Shown piece after piece: positions 59,079-63,613 of a stretch of 64,000 nt of DNA. The translations under genes were made by a program, and so were the position numbers. Every line of letters begins with the position of its first letter. Position 1 is the stretch's first letter. This stretch comes from an uncultured Candidatus Saccharibacteria bacterium. Its GTDB lineage: Bacteria > Patescibacteriota > Saccharimonadia > Saccharimonadales > Saccharimonadaceae. Below the pieces are notes generated by a model. That model searched no databases. It worked only from the letters and a program-made list of their open reading frames with translations, and was not told where the DNA came from. The stretch is taken from assembly GCA_964349805.1 (NCBI GenBank), contig CAYGHE010000002.1, positions 16,489-80,488 of the forward strand, given 5' to 3'.

Positions 59079-59735
59079 ATGCCAATGGATATTAAAGTCA
59101 AGAAGACCATAGAGAGTTTTTTTAGCGAATACCCCCTGCATCGCTTCGAAAAAGGGCAGGTTTTGTTGCGACCCGAAGAAAAATTATCAAGTATATTCTA
59201 TTTGGCCGAAGGTCAAGTAATAGAGTATGACATATCCCCTAGCGGAAACGAGATAGTGGTTAACGCATTTAAGCCAGCCTCCTTTTTCCCAATGTCTAGC
59301 GCCCTAAATCGTTCTCCTAACAGATACTTTTTTGAAGCAGCAACTACTGTAAGTGTACGCCAAGCCCCTGTTGGCAAGGTTGTTGAATTCTTGAAAGATA
59401 ACCCCGAAATAGTGTTTGATTTATTAACTCGAGTATACAGAGGAGCTGATGGCTTAAAGCGACGTATGGCTCACTTGATGGGCAGTAATGCTGAAGGCCG
59501 CGCGATATTTGAATTATTAAATGCAGCTCGTCGCTTCGGCAAACAGAGGCGAGATGGTTATATTGTGATTCAACTCACCGAAAGTGATTTGGCAAAAAGA
59601 TCTGGATTAGCACGAGAAACTCTTAGTCGCGCCATACAAACACTGAAGCAATCGGGGCTTGTACGTATTACATCAAAGGGTATTGTTATTCCTGACTTGC
59701 AACGACTAGAAGAAGCTTTGGACTCAGGTCTTTAA
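59079..59735 (+). CDS. Crp/Fnr-family transcriptional regulator (no cysteines)
   Basis: cNMP-binding-type beta-roll N-terminal domain and a C-terminal HTH, ESDLAKRSGLARETLSRAIQTLK, which follows the R-E-x3-R pattern of the CRP recognition helix. ATG lies 4 nt after the pyrD stop. Confidence 0.88.
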   Translation: MPMDIKVKKTIESFFSEYPLHRFEKGQVLLRPEEKLSSIFYLAEGQVIEYDISPSGNEIVVNAFKPASFFPMSSALNRSPNRYFFEAATTVSVRQAPVGKVVEFLKDNPEIVFDLLTRVYRGADGLKRRMAHLMGSNAEGRAIFELLNAARRFGKQRRDGYIVIQLTESDLAKRSGLARETLSRAIQTLKQSGLVRITSKGIVIPDLQRLEEALDSGL

Positions 59736-59756
59736 TTTTTATTATTTTAATCTAAA

Positions 59757-59772
59757 TGTGATAATTGTCACA
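59757..59772. promoter_or_regulatory. CRP-type operator TGTGATAATTGTCACA, centred about -41.5 from TATACT (59794-59799)
   Basis: Perfect TGTGA-N6-TCACA. A 21-nt gap separates it from the -10. An AAGGAGG SD (59814-59820) precedes ATG 59826. Confidence 0.75.
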
Positions 59773-59825
59773 TATTTTTTATAACCATATGCCTATACTC
59801 CTAAAAGCTAATTAAGGAGGGTTTC

Positions 59826-60745: not shown

Positions 60746-61285
60746 CATTGCTTCGTAGCCATCATCAAAATGATGTTTAATATTATCCATATTACTAATT
60801 ATATCCACGAGACCGTGCAGGTCTTTGGGAAAATTACGACCCGTTAGACATAGGTTAGTTGAGGGATGCTTGATAGCGATTAGTTCTTTTAGGTCTTTTT
60901 TAGTGAGCAGCCCATCGTGGACGGCATTATTAATTTCATCACAGATTACCGCCTGATATTTACCGCTACTGGCGTATTTTAAGGCAATTTCATATGTGCG
61001 TCGAGCACTCTTAGAGTGTTCTTTCTTGGTAACGTTCGGAGCACTTAAATCCCCCGCGTTATAAAACCCTCTACCCCCTTTATAAACTGTTAGTTGGTCT
61101 TTAAATACAGGGCTTATTGCTTTCAAGAAATGGTCTTCGCTAACTTTCCATGTTTTTATAAACTGGATGAAAGCTACTTTGCCACCACTCCCTAAAATGC
61201 GGCAAACCAGCCCTAGAGAGGCGCTGGTTTTACCTTTTCCTTCACCAGTGTAAACAATTACTGCACTTTGTTTATCACGTTTCAC
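60728..61285 (-). CDS. cobO: Cob(I)yrinic acid a,c-diamide / cob(I)alamin adenosyltransferase (CobO/BtuR type)
   Basis: P-loop YTGEGKGKTSASLG, CDEINNAV...GLL and LCLTGRNFP. The start is uncertain: GTG 61285 gives an 11-nt overlap with nrdJ, ATG 61342 gives a 68-nt overlap. Confidence 0.85.
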   Translation of the reverse strand: MKRDKQSAVIVYTGEGKGKTSASLGLVCRILGSGGKVAFIQFIKTWKVSEDHFLKAISPVFKDQLTVYKGGRGFYNAGDLSAPNVTKKEHSKSARRTYEIALKYASSGKYQAVICDEINNAVHDGLLTKKDLKELIAIKHPSTNLCLTGRNFPKDLHGLVDIISNMDNIKHHFDDGYEAMLGVDF

Positions 61286-63536
61286 ATACACCGCTCGCAC
61301 AAGCCAGTTCCTTTGCACCGGTAGTACGATCCTGTCTTTCATATATTATCAACTTTGAAAAGTCCATCTGACCCAAAGCTGCCATACGTTTCTCGTATTC
61401 TTCTTTGTCGATTTCTTCGTATGGAGCCAACTGGTACACGTGGTTGGTTCTAGGCAAGAACGATAGTCCACCGACAATACTCCAGTTTTCGTAGACGAAG
61501 TTGGCAACCGACAACCATTCGTCATCGCTAGCGTAAATCGTAACCGAAGGGTTGTGCTCGGTGAAGTGAACCTTGAGACGCTTCCACTCCTCAAGCATTT
61601 CTAGCGCCGACACATCCTTGGAAACGATAGCTTCATCAGGAGCTTTTACGGGGAATTCTAGCACCATAGTGGTGGCTGTAGAAGTTGAATAGCCAACCTC
61701 TGGATGAACTGGGACACCTTGATCCTGAGCTAATTTAAGCAACGGATCGTTAACACTGATACGAACTCGTCGGATGTAGTATTTAGCGAACCAAGGGTGC
61801 ATTCCCGATCCCACGCCCAGTAGCTGGCCAGAGTTACCGTGTGGTTTCACGCAGGTAATAGCAGCTGATGGACGAGCTTTGAATCGCTTGGCATACAGTT
61901 TATTAACTCGCACCGCTTCGCCCCGTAAAGCTTCAAGGTTGGCGTCATTTCTGACAATTTTGTTGTCATAGTAACCAGTAATCGAAACTCCAAGCAACTG
62001 TTCTTGTTCGCAGTTCTTTTTCCATGTCTTATCCAGATATCCAAAATCAGTTAGCGTGGCTTGGTAAGTACCGAGTAGTGTCGCCAGACGCATTTTGCGT
62101 TTCAGGTCTGCCATAGTGTCTTTGGGTCGTACTACTATGGATGTCAAGTTACAAAATTGTTTAGGTTTTAGGTAAATTTCACCGCAAGGGTTAACTCCCA
62201 TTTGGTTTACATCGGCTATATTCTTCCAGCGTCGCGCCGGCACTTGCTGTTGTAAATCGCCCCTGTTAAATATACCTCTCTCGCCGCTACCAGAAGTTAC
62301 TAAAGCTGTCCATTCCTCTAGGAATTCGCCTGCTGCAGGTTTCGCTTCGTAAACTGCTGAGTTGTTAGCCATAGAACGCTGGCCTTCGGTCTGCCAGAAA
62401 GTTCCCTTTTTAGCATCACGCATAGCAGTATCATCTAATGACGAGAGTGAGATTAAGGCTGAACGGCGCACGCCACCGGCCACTACTATCAATCCGATCT
62501 GACATATAATATCGTGCAAATCAATAGTTGTTAAACGACGCCCTTGCCGAGATAGCATCTTACGGCGAGTAAACACCATTAGTTCTCTTAGTGGTTCTGG
62601 GCCAGATGAGCGTCCACCCATAGTCGCGAGTTGCGCGCCAGCTGGACGAAGTTGTGAATAATCAATCTCAACATCCATACCGCTAGACCAGGCCTCACAT
62701 GCTTTAACATAGGATTCACACCAGCCTTCTTTGCTGTCTTCTACGACAATATCTGGTAATTTCTTGCCTGTTTGTTTTTGAATCTGGGGAAATTTTTCAA
62801 CATTTTCTGGTTCAACGCTAAATCCGCATCCCGCGCCACACATCGAAACATACATTATTTCTGACAAGTCACGCCAGTTTGTTGGTGCTAGATAGGCGCA
62901 GTTATATGCAGTTACGTTGGTAGCTCGAGCCGCCTTTCCTGCCGCCCAAAGAAGACGCATTGAAGGGCTAATTTCTTGCTTTTTAATAGCCTCTTTAACT
63001 TCACTGTATTCTGCATCTGTTAAGTTGTCACCTAGCCTCTCGTGCATGTAATCCATGAATCGGTCTATTGCTTCTAGCCAAGTTTCTCGGCGCCCAAGAT
63101 CATCACGCCAACGAGCGTAAAACTGGTAAAAGATAAACTCCTGATATGAACTAATGAAGTACTTGCTGCTTTTCGCTATAGCTTCTTTTGCTTCTCGAGA
63201 AATAAGTTTGTCCAAGTCGCGATTTTTGGTGTGCTCTTCGCGGTAAAGAATGAATGCTTTAGCGGTAGCGGTAAAATCAGTTAACATTAACTGGCGTTCA
63301 ACTTCATCCTGAATGTCTTCTACATTAGGTACGTAGTCTTTATCTCTCTCGGCATAATGCGCCAAAACATCAGCTACTTTGCGAGCTACCAACAAGGCTT
63401 CTTGTTCACCGCCCTCTTTAGCGGCGGACATAGCTTTTTTAACGGCATTGACTATTTTATCAAGCGTAAATTCAACCGTTCGGCCATTGCGTTTTTGCAC
63501 TTTTTTTAGTTTTTTATAAGTTTTTGTCTGCGCCAT
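61275..63536 (-). CDS. nrdJ: Adenosylcobalamin-dependent ribonucleotide reductase (class II) with N-terminal ATP-cone
   Basis: ATP-cone (KRNGRTVEFTLDKIVNAV), a class II core (NPCGEI, the thiyl-radical Cys loop region) and a C-terminal Cys pair, CASGVC. Start placed at ATG 63536, preceded by an AAGGGGAGG SD. The listed 63605 start lies inside the operator/promoter. Confidence 0.93.
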   Translation of the reverse strand: MAQTKTYKKLKKVQKRNGRTVEFTLDKIVNAVKKAMSAAKEGGEQEALLVARKVADVLAHYAERDKDYVPNVEDIQDEVERQLMLTDFTATAKAFILYREEHTKNRDLDKLISREAKEAIAKSSKYFISSYQEFIFYQFYARWRDDLGRRETWLEAIDRFMDYMHERLGDNLTDAEYSEVKEAIKKQEISPSMRLLWAAGKAARATNVTAYNCAYLAPTNWRDLSEIMYVSMCGAGCGFSVEPENVEKFPQIQKQTGKKLPDIVVEDSKEGWCESYVKACEAWSSGMDVEIDYSQLRPAGAQLATMGGRSSGPEPLRELMVFTRRKMLSRQGRRLTTIDLHDIICQIGLIVVAGGVRRSALISLSSLDDTAMRDAKKGTFWQTEGQRSMANNSAVYEAKPAAGEFLEEWTALVTSGSGERGIFNRGDLQQQVPARRWKNIADVNQMGVNPCGEIYLKPKQFCNLTSIVVRPKDTMADLKRKMRLATLLGTYQATLTDFGYLDKTWKKNCEQEQLLGVSITGYYDNKIVRNDANLEALRGEAVRVNKLYAKRFKARPSAAITCVKPHGNSGQLLGVGSGMHPWFAKYYIRRVRISVNDPLLKLAQDQGVPVHPEVGYSTSTATTMVLEFPVKAPDEAIVSKDVSALEMLEEWKRLKVHFTEHNPSVTIYASDDEWLSVANFVYENWSIVGGLSFLPRTNHVYQLAPYEEIDKEEYEKRMAALGQMDFSKLIIYERQDRTTGAKELACASGVCET

Positions 63537-63597
63537 AAAACCTCCCCTTATGTGTATGTAATCAATGCGTAATATATCTATGGCGTTTATAAAAATA

Positions 63598-63613
63598 TGT
63601 GACAATTATCACA
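63598..63613. promoter_or_regulatory. Second copy of CRP-type operator TGTGATAATTGTCACA (minus-strand reading), centred about -41.5 from TATATT (63576-63571)
   Basis: Identical 16-mer and identical first 7 flanking nt (TATTTTT) as at 59757-59779. A 21-nt gap separates it from the -10 hexamer. Confidence 0.75.

What the first reader, a model, noticed from the sequence alone, without database searches (positions are those of the whole stretch)
59079..63613. Two identical CRP-type operators at class-II spacing link a cysteine-free Crp/Fnr regulator to two convergent cobalamin operons
**Seen.** The 16-mer TGTGATAATTGTCACA occurs twice: at 59757-59772, and on the minus strand at 63613-63598. The next 7 nt (TATTTTT) are also identical. 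In both copies exactly 21 nt separate the operator from a TATAnT hexamer (TATACT 59794-59799; TATATT 63576-63571). If transcription starts about 7 nt after the hexamer, the dyad centre falls at about -41.5. Each promoter is followed by a strong SD and the first gene of an operon: the DUF4430-like gene plus S-component-like gene on the + strand, and nrdJ plus cobO on the - strand. The regulator gene (59079-59735) ends 21 nt before the first operator. Its HTH reads ARETLSRAIQ and the protein has no Cys.

**Established.** TGTGA-N6-TCACA is the CRP consensus. A centre at -41.5 is the class II activation geometry of CRP and FNR. CRP reads TGTGA through the R-E-x3-R residues of RETVGR. FNR-type O2 sensing needs an N-terminal Cys cluster.

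**Inference.** This looks like a self-contained regulon in which a non-FNR, CRP-like activator co-controls corrinoid capture, adenosylation and the only B12-dependent enzyme visible here. The effector is unknown. Cobalamin uptake genes are normally riboswitch-controlled, so protein-based control would be unusual.
Basis: partly seen in the sequence, partly recalled or inferred. Interest (0 to 1): 0.8.

Follow-up and report, generated by a model that had tools for sequence, protein, structure and literature searches.

The report
CRP-type switch for B12 genes in Saccharibacteria
Two identical DNA sites next to a CRP-like regulator gene are very probably real operators that switch on vitamin-B12 uptake and the B12-dependent ribonucleotide reductase in a group of tiny epibiotic bacteria (Saccharibacteria), where an RNA riboswitch would normally control B12 uptake.

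Summary
TGTGATAATTGTCACA+TATTTTT occurs at 59757-59779(+) and 63613-63591(-), each 21 nt from a TATAnT hexamer. The cysteine-free Crp/Fnr gene ends 21 nt before the first copy.

Comparison with about 170 related loci shows the sites are functional.
- The regulator belongs to a Saccharibacteria-wide Crp/Fnr subfamily with an invariant R-E-T-x2-R helix.
- TGTGA-N6-TCACA is strongly enriched and about 90% intergenic in loci of that lineage, and absent from intergenic DNA in control loci.
- A -10-like TANNNT follows the box at a gap of 21 or 22 nt in 64 of 158 site directions (background about 3.5 per offset).
- These promoters have no -35 element. This is class II geometry.
- Nine independent loci carry the box before both the DUF4430-DUF6580 (BtuM-like) operon and nrdJ(-cobO).
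- One Saccharibacteria locus has a cobalamin riboswitch before the transporter operon instead; the window has none.

The "self-contained B12 regulon" reading is too narrow. In the same clade the box also precedes pyrD and acetate kinase. In sister clades it precedes VKOR, PNPOx-like and other genes.

The effector is unknown; the cAMP contact residues are not conserved. Activation is inferred, not shown. I rate this a new variant of a known kind, of moderate interest.

The parts
57944..59074 (+). pyrD (dihydroorotate dehydrogenase). It lies immediately upstream of the regulator gene and is probably co-transcribed with it. In related genomes pyrD itself carries the box.
   Evidence: ORF. PF01180 on the identical contig. 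Box upstream of pyrD in L002, L082-L088 and L121.
59079..59735 (+). Crp/Fnr-family regulator. It has no Cys and its HTH reads RETLSR. The start is 59079 or 59085.
   Evidence: Pfam cNMP_binding 8.7e-11 and HTH_Crp_2 9.4e-14. Below every NCBIfam equivalog cut-off. 332 homologs, named ones labelled Saccharimonadales or Patescibacteria. R179-E180-T181...R184 invariant. AF2 model has the CRP fold.
59757..59772 (+). Operator 1, TGTGATAATTGTCACA (a 23-nt identity with operator 2 extends to 59779).
   Evidence: Orthologous boxes before DUF4430 in L160, L002, L031, L162, L164-L167.
59794..59799 (+). -10-like hexamer TATACT, 21 nt after operator 1. The predicted TSS is near 59806, which puts the box centre at about -41.5.
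   Evidence: TATACT, TAAACT or TACACT at gap 21/22 in all 9 orthologous promoters. Lineage-wide offset statistics.
59826..60230 (+). DUF4430 protein with an N-terminal TM/signal segment and a transcobalamin-C-terminal-like domain; putative corrinoid-binding protein.
   Evidence: PF14478 2.9e-17. Its only PDB sequence hits are transcobalamin-1 and -2 C-terminal regions, E 0.09 and 0.39. DUF4430 is described as the C-terminal domain of TCN proteins (PMC4350170).
60227..60745 (+). DUF6580 membrane protein with a BtuM / ECF-S-component-like fold; putative B12 transporter. It is coupled to DUF4430 through an ATGA stop/start overlap.
   Evidence: PF20221 1.4e-43. AF2 pLDDT 94. Best PDB fold match is BtuM-hydroxycobalamin 8ovv, TM 0.65, followed by FolT, RibU and ThiT. 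The L030 orthologous operon follows a cobalamin riboswitch.
60728..61300 (-). cobO/btuR ATP:corrinoid adenosyltransferase. It overlaps the nrdJ stop, so it belongs to the same operon.
   Evidence: PF02572 4.5e-45. Public gene call of 190 aa. Start candidates.
61275..63536 (-). nrdJ, class II (adenosylcobalamin-dependent) ribonucleotide reductase with an N-terminal ATP-cone.
   Evidence: TIGR02505 RTPR 1.7e-86, ATP-cone 5.6e-17, RNR-II insertion domain.
63571..63576 (-). -10-like hexamer TATATT, 21 nt after operator 2. The predicted TSS is near 63564.
   Evidence: Orthologous nrdJ promoters.
63598..63613 (-). Operator 2, TGTGATAATTGTCACA on the minus strand.
   Evidence: Box upstream of nrdJ in every locus with NrdJ at least 76% identical, and in none of about 55 loci at 67% identity or less.
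63678..63727 (.). Perfect 14-bp hairpin between the upstream 79-aa gene and the nrdJ promoter. It may act as a terminator or insulator, which would make the nrdJ promoter an independent unit.
   Evidence: Gene map.

Best explanation
The two 16-mers are binding sites for a dimer of the adjacent Crp/Fnr-family protein. Each box sits where a -35 element would be, centred about 41.5 bp upstream of the inferred start, in a promoter that has a good -10 but no -35. RNA polymerase therefore most likely needs the bound regulator to initiate, as in class II activation by CRP or FNR. One signal would then switch on two convergent operons together. The first, DUF4430 plus a BtuM-like DUF6580 protein, captures and imports a corrinoid. 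The second, nrdJ-cobO, adenosylates the corrinoid and uses it to make deoxyribonucleotides. B12 supply would be tied to expression of its consumer (demand-driven control), not to the B12 level sensed by a riboswitch. The regulator is not B12-specific. It belongs to a subfamily found across Saccharibacteria, with the same box and the same geometry. In this clade it also drives pyrD and acetate kinase. In sister clades it drives VKOR, PNPOx-like and sulfur/redox genes. The signal is therefore more likely a general growth, energy or redox cue than cobalamin. It is probably not cAMP. Shown here: the sites, their conservation, their geometry, their co-occurrence with the regulator, and the gene functions by homology. 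Inferred: binding by this protein, activation, the start sites and the effector.
For: Site reality: exact TGTGA-N6-TCACA occurs 2 times against 0.08 expected in the window. In 1.55 Mb of Saccharibacteria loci, 116 sites score PWM>=14 and 106 of them are intergenic. In 0.62 Mb of nrdJ loci from other lineages there are 2 such sites, neither intergenic. Geometry: TANNNT falls at gap 21 (41 times) or 22 (23 times) in 158 site directions, against about 3.5 per other offset. The best TTGACA match is <=3/6 in 114 of 122 promoters. No sigma70 consensus promoter serves either operon. Link to the regulator: the recognition helix R-E-T-x2-R is invariant in 34 homologs and aligns with CRP R180/E181/R185. 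The regulator gene is adjacent to the boxes in the window, L160, L002, L031, L162, L165, L166 and L167. Regulators linked to nrdJ/B12 genes form one clade. Paired boxes before both the transporter operon and nrdJ occur in 9 independent loci with DUF6580 identity of about 47-74%. B12 function: see the parts list. No riboswitch in the window; the predicted leaders are only about 20 and 28 nt. Precedent: Dnr/Anr, both Crp/Fnr-family, activate PnrdJ in P. aeruginosa through a promoter box (PMC4860495).
Against: There are no experimental data: no mapped TSS, no binding assay, no expression data. The -41.5 position rests on an inferred -10 hexamer. A protein bound at -41.5 could also repress. Only about 70 kb of this organism's genome could be scanned, so its full regulon is unknown. 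Some genomes carry paralogs of the regulator (L049, L061, L069), so which paralog binds which box is not proven. Three transporter loci (L161, L168, L169) have neither a box nor a detectable riboswitch, so box control of the transporter is clade-specific. The loci were collected through the regulator, nrdJ or DUF6580, so target frequencies are biased.
Confidence: 0.7

Rival explanations
1. Same protein and same sites, but it acts as a repressor. Bound at the -35 position, it would block RNA polymerase until a signal releases it.
For: The box overlaps the -35 region. Nothing measured here distinguishes activation from occlusion. Many Crp/Fnr proteins repress at some promoters (general knowledge).
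Against: The promoters have no -35 element that unaided polymerase could use. The box-to--10 distance is fixed to within 1 bp across more than 60 promoters of unrelated genes, which is typical of activator-polymerase contacts and unnecessary for occlusion. A single box serves two divergent promoters symmetrically.
Confidence: 0.15
2. A dedicated cobalamin regulator with a self-contained regulon. The protein would sense a corrinoid or AdoCbl and act as a protein substitute for the riboswitch.
For: In the roughly 70 kb of this genome that could be read, the only strong boxes are the two at the B12/nrdJ operons. The regulator gene is embedded in the cluster in many genomes. A riboswitch occupies the equivalent place in L030. 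An invariant His lies in a conserved segment modelled with low confidence.
Against: Within the same regulator clade the box also precedes pyrD, acetate kinase, an acidic protein and a GyrI-like gene. Regulators linked to VKOR and to other contexts also occur in this subfamily, and the sensor-domain residues are invariant across the 34 homologs aligned, drawn from the whole range of the subfamily (their genomic contexts were not mapped). A roughly 130-aa cNMP-type beta-roll has no known B12-binding motif (general knowledge).
Confidence: 0.07
3. The 23-nt inverted repeat is structural: terminal repeats of a mobile or recently duplicated 3.8-kb cassette, or a chance match. It would not be an operator.
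For: The two copies are perfect 23-nt inverted repeats flanking exactly the four-gene cassette. Identity of the N6 spacer and of 7 flanking bases goes beyond what the consensus requires.
Against: Orthologous loci keep only the TGTGA/TCACA half-sites and the spacing to the -10. The N6 and the flanks differ between the two boxes of a locus and between loci. The same box occurs at many unrelated promoters. No transposase or target-site duplication was seen.
Confidence: 0.03
4. The box upstream of nrdJ is an NrdR box, the usual repressor site of ribonucleotide reductase operons.
For: nrd operons are commonly NrdR-controlled through 16-bp palindromes (general knowledge).
Against: The NrdR consensus recalled from memory (acaCwAtATaTwGtgt, usually in tandem) has no match with up to 3 mismatches near nrdJ. 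The box here is single, matches the CRP consensus and also precedes non-nrd genes. No NrdR-like zinc-ribbon ORF is found in the window.
Confidence: 0.01

Closest known systems
E. coli CRP at class II promoters (e.g. galP1, pmelR)
   Same: Same two-domain fold. Same R-E-x3-R recognition helix. Same TGTGA-N6-TCACA box. Same 21-nt gap from core box to -10, which centres the box at -41.5, and the box replaces the -35.
   Different: Only about 22% identity. It scores far below the CRP equivalog cut-off, 51.6 against 266 bits. The cAMP contacts E72, R82, T127 and S128 align with Met, Asn, Leu and Lys/Leu. The targets are different, and many promoters in relatives are leaderless.
Pseudomonas aeruginosa Anr/Dnr activation of nrdJ (PMC4860495); E. 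coli FNR activation of nrdDG (from memory)
   Same: A Crp/Fnr-family activator acts through a promoter box on an oxygen-independent ribonucleotide reductase gene.
   Different: The box there is of the FNR type, TTGAT-N4-ATCAA. The sensors there use an Fe-S cluster or haem, whereas this protein has no Cys. Co-control of B12 uptake and adenosylation is not described there.
Cobalamin riboswitch (RF00174) control of B12 uptake genes
   Same: It controls the same kind of genes. A riboswitch precedes the orthologous DUF4430-DUF6580 operon in Saccharibacteria locus L030 (32.1 bits).
   Different: The window has no riboswitch at E<=1 and no room for one in leaders of 20-28 nt. Control here is by a protein at the promoter and is probably blind to the B12 level.
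Thermus thermophilus SdrP/LdrP-type Crp/Fnr activators (effector-independent, class II sites; from memory)
   Same: Cys-free, non-cAMP Crp/Fnr proteins that activate -35-less promoters from about -41.5. PDB entry 2zcw (deposited as an FNR/CRP-family regulator; SdrP from memory) is among the sequence hits, and NCBIfam LdrP gives a weak hit.
   Different: No closer to this family than CRP or NtcA. The regulons are unrelated to B12.
BtuM (solitary S-component-like B12 transporter, PDB 8ovv)
   Same: Best structural match of the DUF6580 model: TM 0.65, probability 1.0.
   Different: 16% identity and no sequence-level hit. The Cys cobalt ligand of BtuM was not mapped. Here the gene is paired with a DUF4430 binding protein.

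Membership tests
CRP/FNR superfamily | N-terminal cNMP-binding beta-roll plus C-terminal Crp-type winged HTH | tested here: met
   PF00027 8.7e-11 and PF13545 9.4e-14. Foldseek probability 1.0 to the CRP, GlxR and NtcA structures.
CRP proper (cAMP receptor protein) | Score above the NCBIfam equivalog cut-off (NF008732) | tested here: not met
   51.6 bits against a cut-off of 266.
CRP proper (cAMP receptor protein) | cAMP contact residues E72, R82, S83, T127, S128 | tested here: not met
   The hhalign profile alignment puts M72, N81, a variable column, L126 and K127 at these positions. Alignment identity is 22%, so certainty is moderate.
CRP proper (cAMP receptor protein) | Recognition helix R-E-x3-R and a TGTGA-N6-TCACA target | tested here: met
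   R179, E180 and R184 are invariant in 34 homologs and align with CRP RETVGR. The box is enriched and intergenic.
FNR | N-terminal Cys cluster for a [4Fe-4S] centre | tested here: not met
   No Cys in the protein. No conserved Cys column in A1.
FNR | E-x2-S-R helix and a TTGAT-N4-ATCAA box | tested here: not met
   The helix is RETLSR and the box is TGTGA-type.
Class II CRP/FNR-dependent promoter | Box centred about 41.5 bp upstream of the TSS | tested here: inconclusive
   The spacing to the -10 hexamer is the canonical 21 nt here and 21/22 nt in 64 of 158 site directions in relatives. No TSS has been mapped.
Class II CRP/FNR-dependent promoter | Weak or absent -35 element | tested here: met
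   Best TTGACA match <=3/6 in 114 of 122 promoters. No consensus promoter for the two operons.
Class II CRP/FNR-dependent promoter | Transcription depends on the bound regulator | not testable with these tools
   Needs in vitro transcription or genetics.
Riboswitch-controlled B12 uptake operon | Cobalamin riboswitch aptamer in the 5' leader | tested here: not met
   No Rfam hit in the window at gathering threshold or at E<=1 in 59000-64000. Positive control: L030 at 32.1 bits.
NrdR-controlled nrd operon | Tandem NrdR boxes upstream of the nrd gene | tested here: not met
   No match with up to 3 mismatches near nrdJ. The consensus was recalled from memory.
BtuM / ECF S-component-like vitamin transporters (for DUF6580) | Six-helix S-component fold | tested here: met
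   AF2 pLDDT 94 with six helices. Top PDB matches are BtuM, FolT, RibU and ThiT.
BtuM / ECF S-component-like vitamin transporters (for DUF6580) | Cobalamin binding and the Cys cobalt ligand | not tested
   H23 and C129 are nearly invariant in the family but were not mapped onto BtuM.

The most novel reading that the evidence does not exclude
In these reduced genomes one Cys-free, non-cAMP Crp-family protein may replace both the cobalamin riboswitch and NrdR. Through its unusually conserved sensor domain (invariant GxDGxxRRMAHLMGG hinge) it would sense a nucleotide, redox or host-derived cue. It would then launch a DNA-precursor programme (nrdJ, pyrD) together with import and adenosylation of the B12 that programme needs. 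That would be a protein-level, demand-driven B12 regulon, and possibly the main growth switch of epibiotic Saccharibacteria.
Probability: 0.15. Interest if true: 0.75.

Novelty: new variant of a known kind. Interest (0 to 1): 0.55.

Why it matters
Saccharibacteria and other Patescibacteria have very few transcription factors, and almost nothing is known about how they regulate genes. This finding gives a regulator family with a sharply defined operator, a fixed promoter architecture and a reconstructable regulon, all open to direct test by EMSA, reporter assays and metatranscriptomes. It also gives a clear case where B12 uptake genes, normally riboswitch-controlled, are wired by a protein to the B12-dependent enzyme that consumes the cofactor. 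That bears on how epibionts with minimal genomes budget a cofactor they cannot make. Finally, it supports a B12-uptake role for the uncharacterised DUF4430/DUF6580 pair. No paper in the searchable library describes a Crp regulon, or nrdJ/B12 regulation, in Saccharibacteria.

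Tried and rejected
1. Other strong boxes in the window: none found. The 27515 site (score 13.0) and the 59564 site lie inside coding sequence and have no -10. There is none in the 5.7 kb beyond the window end.
2. Box upstream of the bPH_2-pyrD-regulator operon (autoregulation): none in the window or in L160. Autoregulatory boxes do exist in other clades.
3. Riboswitch in L161, L168 and L169: none at E<=0.1; the intergenic regions hold tRNA genes.
4. Sequence search of DUF6580 against the PDB: no hit. Only the fold search was informative.
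5. Closest solved regulator as a guide to the effector: uninformative. NtcA, CRP, FNR and GlxR are about equally distant.
6. Source organism name through cluster look-up: no names held. Taxonomy is inferred from homolog labels.
7. Literature searches for a Saccharibacteria Crp regulon, for DUF6580 and for Saccharibacteria RNR/cobalamin: nothing found.
8. NrdR box and NrdR gene in the window: none.
9. TTGTCA inside the box as a -35: rejected, because it lies 23 nt from the -10.

Full report
**1. The observation**

- TGTGATAATTGTCACA lies at 59757-59772 on the plus strand and at 63613-63598 on the minus strand.
- The identity extends to 23 nt, with arms 59757-59779 and 63591-63613 that are 100% complementary.
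- Exact TGTGA-N6-TCACA occurs twice in the window against 0.08 expected. None of 100 dinucleotide-preserving shuffles reaches two.
- In both copies exactly 21 nt separate the box from a TATAnT hexamer: TATACT at 59794-59799 and TATATT at 63576-63571. A strong Shine-Dalgarno sequence and a start codon follow.
- The regulator ORF (59079-59735; public gene calls use the second ATG at 59085) ends 21 nt before operator 1. It reads GLARETLSRAIQ in its HTH and has no cysteine.

- a cNMP_binding + HTH_Crp_2 regulator;
- a DUF4430 protein;
- a DUF6580 membrane protein, whose start overlaps the DUF4430 stop in an ATGA;
- a CobA/CobO/BtuR adenosyltransferase;
- an ATP-cone-bearing class II ribonucleotide reductase.

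cobO overlaps the nrdJ stop, so the two form an operon.

**2. Where it comes from**

The regulator has 332 homologs at E<=1e-5. Those that carry a name are labelled Saccharimonadales, Saccharibacteria or Patescibacteria. Most are 215-216 aa long and 53-61% identical.

I fetched four sets of related loci:
- 79 regulator loci from species-representative genomes;
- 80 nrdJ loci from metagenomes;
- 10 loci holding DUF6580 homologs;
- the window's own contig.

**3. The box is a real, lineage-wide operator**

- In the first 79 loci (1.28 Mb), perfect TGTGA-N6-TCACA occurs 33 times; about 1 is expected by simple base-frequency arithmetic (my estimate).
- With the window's two sites that makes 35, of which 31 are intergenic.
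- With a weight matrix built from these sites, 1.55 Mb of Saccharibacteria loci hold 116 sites scoring >=14, and 106 of them are intergenic.
- In contrast, 0.62 Mb of nrdJ loci from other lineages hold 2 such sites, neither intergenic.
- The recognition-helix residues R179, E180, T181 and R184 are invariant in an alignment of 34 homologs. They align with R180, E181 and R185 of E. coli CRP, which read TGTGA (the role of these residues is established knowledge).

**4. The class II spacing is a conserved design rule**

- Around 79 intergenic sites examined in both directions (158 site directions), TANNNT starts 21 nt after the box 41 times and 22 nt after it 23 times. Other offsets average about 3.5.
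- The hexamer consensus is TATAcT.
- The best match to TTGACA at a spacer of 16-18 nt is <=3/6 in 114 of 122 such promoters, so they have no -35 element.
- The consensus scan finds no ordinary sigma-70 promoter for either operon in the window.
- A 21-nt gap between the 16-bp core and the -10 is exactly the E. coli class II arrangement, with the box centre at -41.5.
- In many relatives the start codon lies 6-7 nt after the hexamer, which implies leaderless mRNAs. A single box can serve two divergent promoters.

No start site is mapped anywhere, so the -41.5 position is an inference from the -10 hexamer.

**5. The link to B12 genes is conserved**

The cluster regulator > DUF4430 > DUF6580 > < cobO < nrdJ recurs in the following loci:
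- L160, the closest relative, syntenic over 16 kb;
- L002, L031, L165, L166, L167 and a JGI contig without DNA;
- L162, without cobO;
- L164, without an adjacent regulator gene.

Every locus that has DNA carries a box followed by TAnnnT at 21/22 nt before the transporter operon, and another before nrdJ. That makes nine independent pairs including the window, with DUF6580 identity of about 47-74%.

Across the nrdJ set the pattern is graded:
- all loci whose NrdJ is at least 76% identical have the box upstream, usually with the regulator gene convergent just downstream;
- about 55 loci at 67% identity or less have none.

In a neighbour-joining tree of 102 regulators, those next to nrdJ/B12 genes form one clade that includes the window. 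It is sister to a clade whose members sit next to a VKOR gene.

**6. The B12 role of the two uncharacterised genes**

Four lines of evidence agree.
- The only PDB sequence hits of the DUF4430 protein are the C-terminal regions of transcobalamin-1 and -2, and both are weak. DUF4430 is described as the C-terminal domain of TCN proteins (PMC4350170).
- A high-confidence model of DUF6580 (pLDDT 94) matches BtuM bound to hydroxycobalamin best (8ovv, TM 0.65). ECF S-components follow.
- In Saccharibacteria locus L030 the same two-gene operon has no box and sits behind a cobalamin riboswitch (RF00174, 32.1 bits).
- The genes cluster with cobO and nrdJ.

The window has no Rfam hit at E<=1 in 59000-64000. 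Its predicted leaders are only about 20 and 28 nt. Protein control in place of a riboswitch is therefore a fair description for this clade. Three other transporter loci have neither element.

**7. The regulon is not self-contained**

Within the window's own regulator clade (420 kb examined), the box with its -10 also precedes these genes:
- pyrD, in L002, L082-L088 and L121 (the hexamer is weak or non-canonical at several of these);
- acetate kinase, in L083, L086-L088 and L121;
- a 507-519-aa acidic protein without a Pfam domain;
- a GyrI-like gene.

In sister clades the box precedes VKOR (20 loci) and also PNPOx-like, class-V aminotransferase, GreA-like, rhodanese, phosphoketolase and cytochrome b genes. 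It also precedes the regulator gene itself.

In the roughly 70 kb available for this organism the only strong boxes are the two reported. The rest of its genome could not be read.

**8. The effector**

- The protein scores far below every NCBIfam equivalog cut-off.
- It is about equally distant from NtcA, CRP, FNR and GlxR.
- The CRP residues that hold cAMP (E72, R82, T127, S128) align with Met, Asn, Leu and Lys/Leu.
- There is no Cys for an Fe-S cluster.
- The sensor domain is very conserved. It includes an invariant GxDGxxRRMAHLMGG segment that the model cannot place and that interrupts the long C-helix.
- These residues are invariant across the 34 homologs aligned, drawn from the whole range of the subfamily.
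- Regulators in non-B12 contexts (next to VKOR or other genes) also belong to this subfamily. A corrinoid effector is therefore unlikely.

The target list has two themes. One is nucleotide precursors and B12. The other is quinone-, thiol- and flavin-linked enzymes and fermentative ATP synthesis. Together they suggest a growth, energy or redox cue, but that is speculation.

**9. Mechanism and rivals**

Most likely (0.7): the adjacent regulator binds both boxes as a dimer. It recruits RNA polymerase to -35-less promoters (class II activation) and so co-induces B12 capture, adenosylation and NrdJ.

Rivals:
- the same protein acting as a repressor (0.15);
- a dedicated corrinoid sensor (0.07);
- structural or mobile-element repeats (0.03);
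- an NrdR box (0.01).

**10. Comparison with known systems and novelty**

The system works like CRP or FNR at class II promoters. A Crp/Fnr-family activator on nrdJ has a precedent in P. aeruginosa Dnr/Anr (PMC4860495).

It is not a member of CRP proper, because the cut-off and the cAMP residues are not met. It is not FNR either, because it lacks the Cys cluster and has a different helix and box.

Three things are new:
- the subfamily itself, specific to Saccharibacteria;
- its reconstructed box and promoter rule;
- the wiring of a B12 uptake operon to the B12-dependent reductase by a protein in place of a riboswitch.

I found no paper describing this.

I rate it a new variant of a known kind, interest 0.55.

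Noticed in passing
L030:12999-13063: A cobalamin riboswitch (RF00174, 32.1 bits, just above the gathering score) sits upstream of the DUF4430-DUF6580 operon in another Saccharibacteria genome. That locus has no CRP-type box there. This is the RNA alternative to the box seen in the window.
   Followed up: yes
L016:11718-11733 (also L022:2594, L013:15346): One box serves two divergent promoters (VKOR and a class-V aminotransferase). A -10 lies 21/22 nt away on each side and the start codons come 6-7 nt after the hexamers. These would be bidirectional, leaderless class II promoters about 84 bp apart.
   Followed up: partly
window 57227-57242: TATAAT followed 7 nt later by the ATG at 57240 of the bPH_2 gene. 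This is probably a leaderless, box-free promoter for the bPH_2-pyrD-regulator operon. The regulator would then not be visibly autoregulated here, unlike in some other clades.
   Followed up: partly
window 63678-63727: A perfect 14-bp hairpin with a 22-nt loop lies between the upstream 79-aa gene and the nrdJ operator. It may be a terminator or insulator, but no T-run follows it.
   Followed up: no
window 59564-59579: A one-mismatch box, TGTGATTCAACTCACC, lies inside the regulator's own coding sequence. A weaker match occupies the homologous position in L160 (7361-7376). No -10 follows. It is probably a by-product of the conserved protein sequence.
   Followed up: partly
window 58976-58991: A perfect palindrome, GGTGATTTAAATCACC, lies in the 3' end of pyrD about 90-100 nt upstream of the regulator start. 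It is a two-mismatch variant of the box with a low matrix score.
   Followed up: no
regulator residues 122-136 (window 59442-59486): The most conserved stretch of the family, GxDGxxRRMAHLMGG with invariant R128, R129 and H132, is the only low-confidence part of the AF2 model. It breaks the long dimerisation helix typical of CRP. It is a candidate effector or hinge element.
   Followed up: partly
L083:9154-10710 (also L012:13102-14625, L086, L087, L088, L121): A 507-519-aa acidic protein with no Pfam domain is preceded by a strong box plus -10 in several genomes of the window's regulator clade. It is an unknown member of the regulon.
   Followed up: partly
window 60227-60745 (DUF6580 family alignment A2): His23 and Cys129 are nearly invariant in the BtuM-like DUF6580 family. 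BtuM is known to use a Cys as cobalt ligand (from memory). The correspondence was not mapped.
   Followed up: no
L002, L009, L011, L078: Contigs carrying typical Saccharibacteria gene clusters are deposited under Verrucomicrobiia, Bacillota, Magnetospirillaceae and Dongiaceae MAG labels. This is probably mis-binning.
   Followed up: no
L007:14380-14490, L008, L099: The nrdJ leaders in one sub-clade are about 95 nt long and conserved in sequence downstream of the box-dependent promoter. They may hold an additional regulatory element.
   Followed up: no
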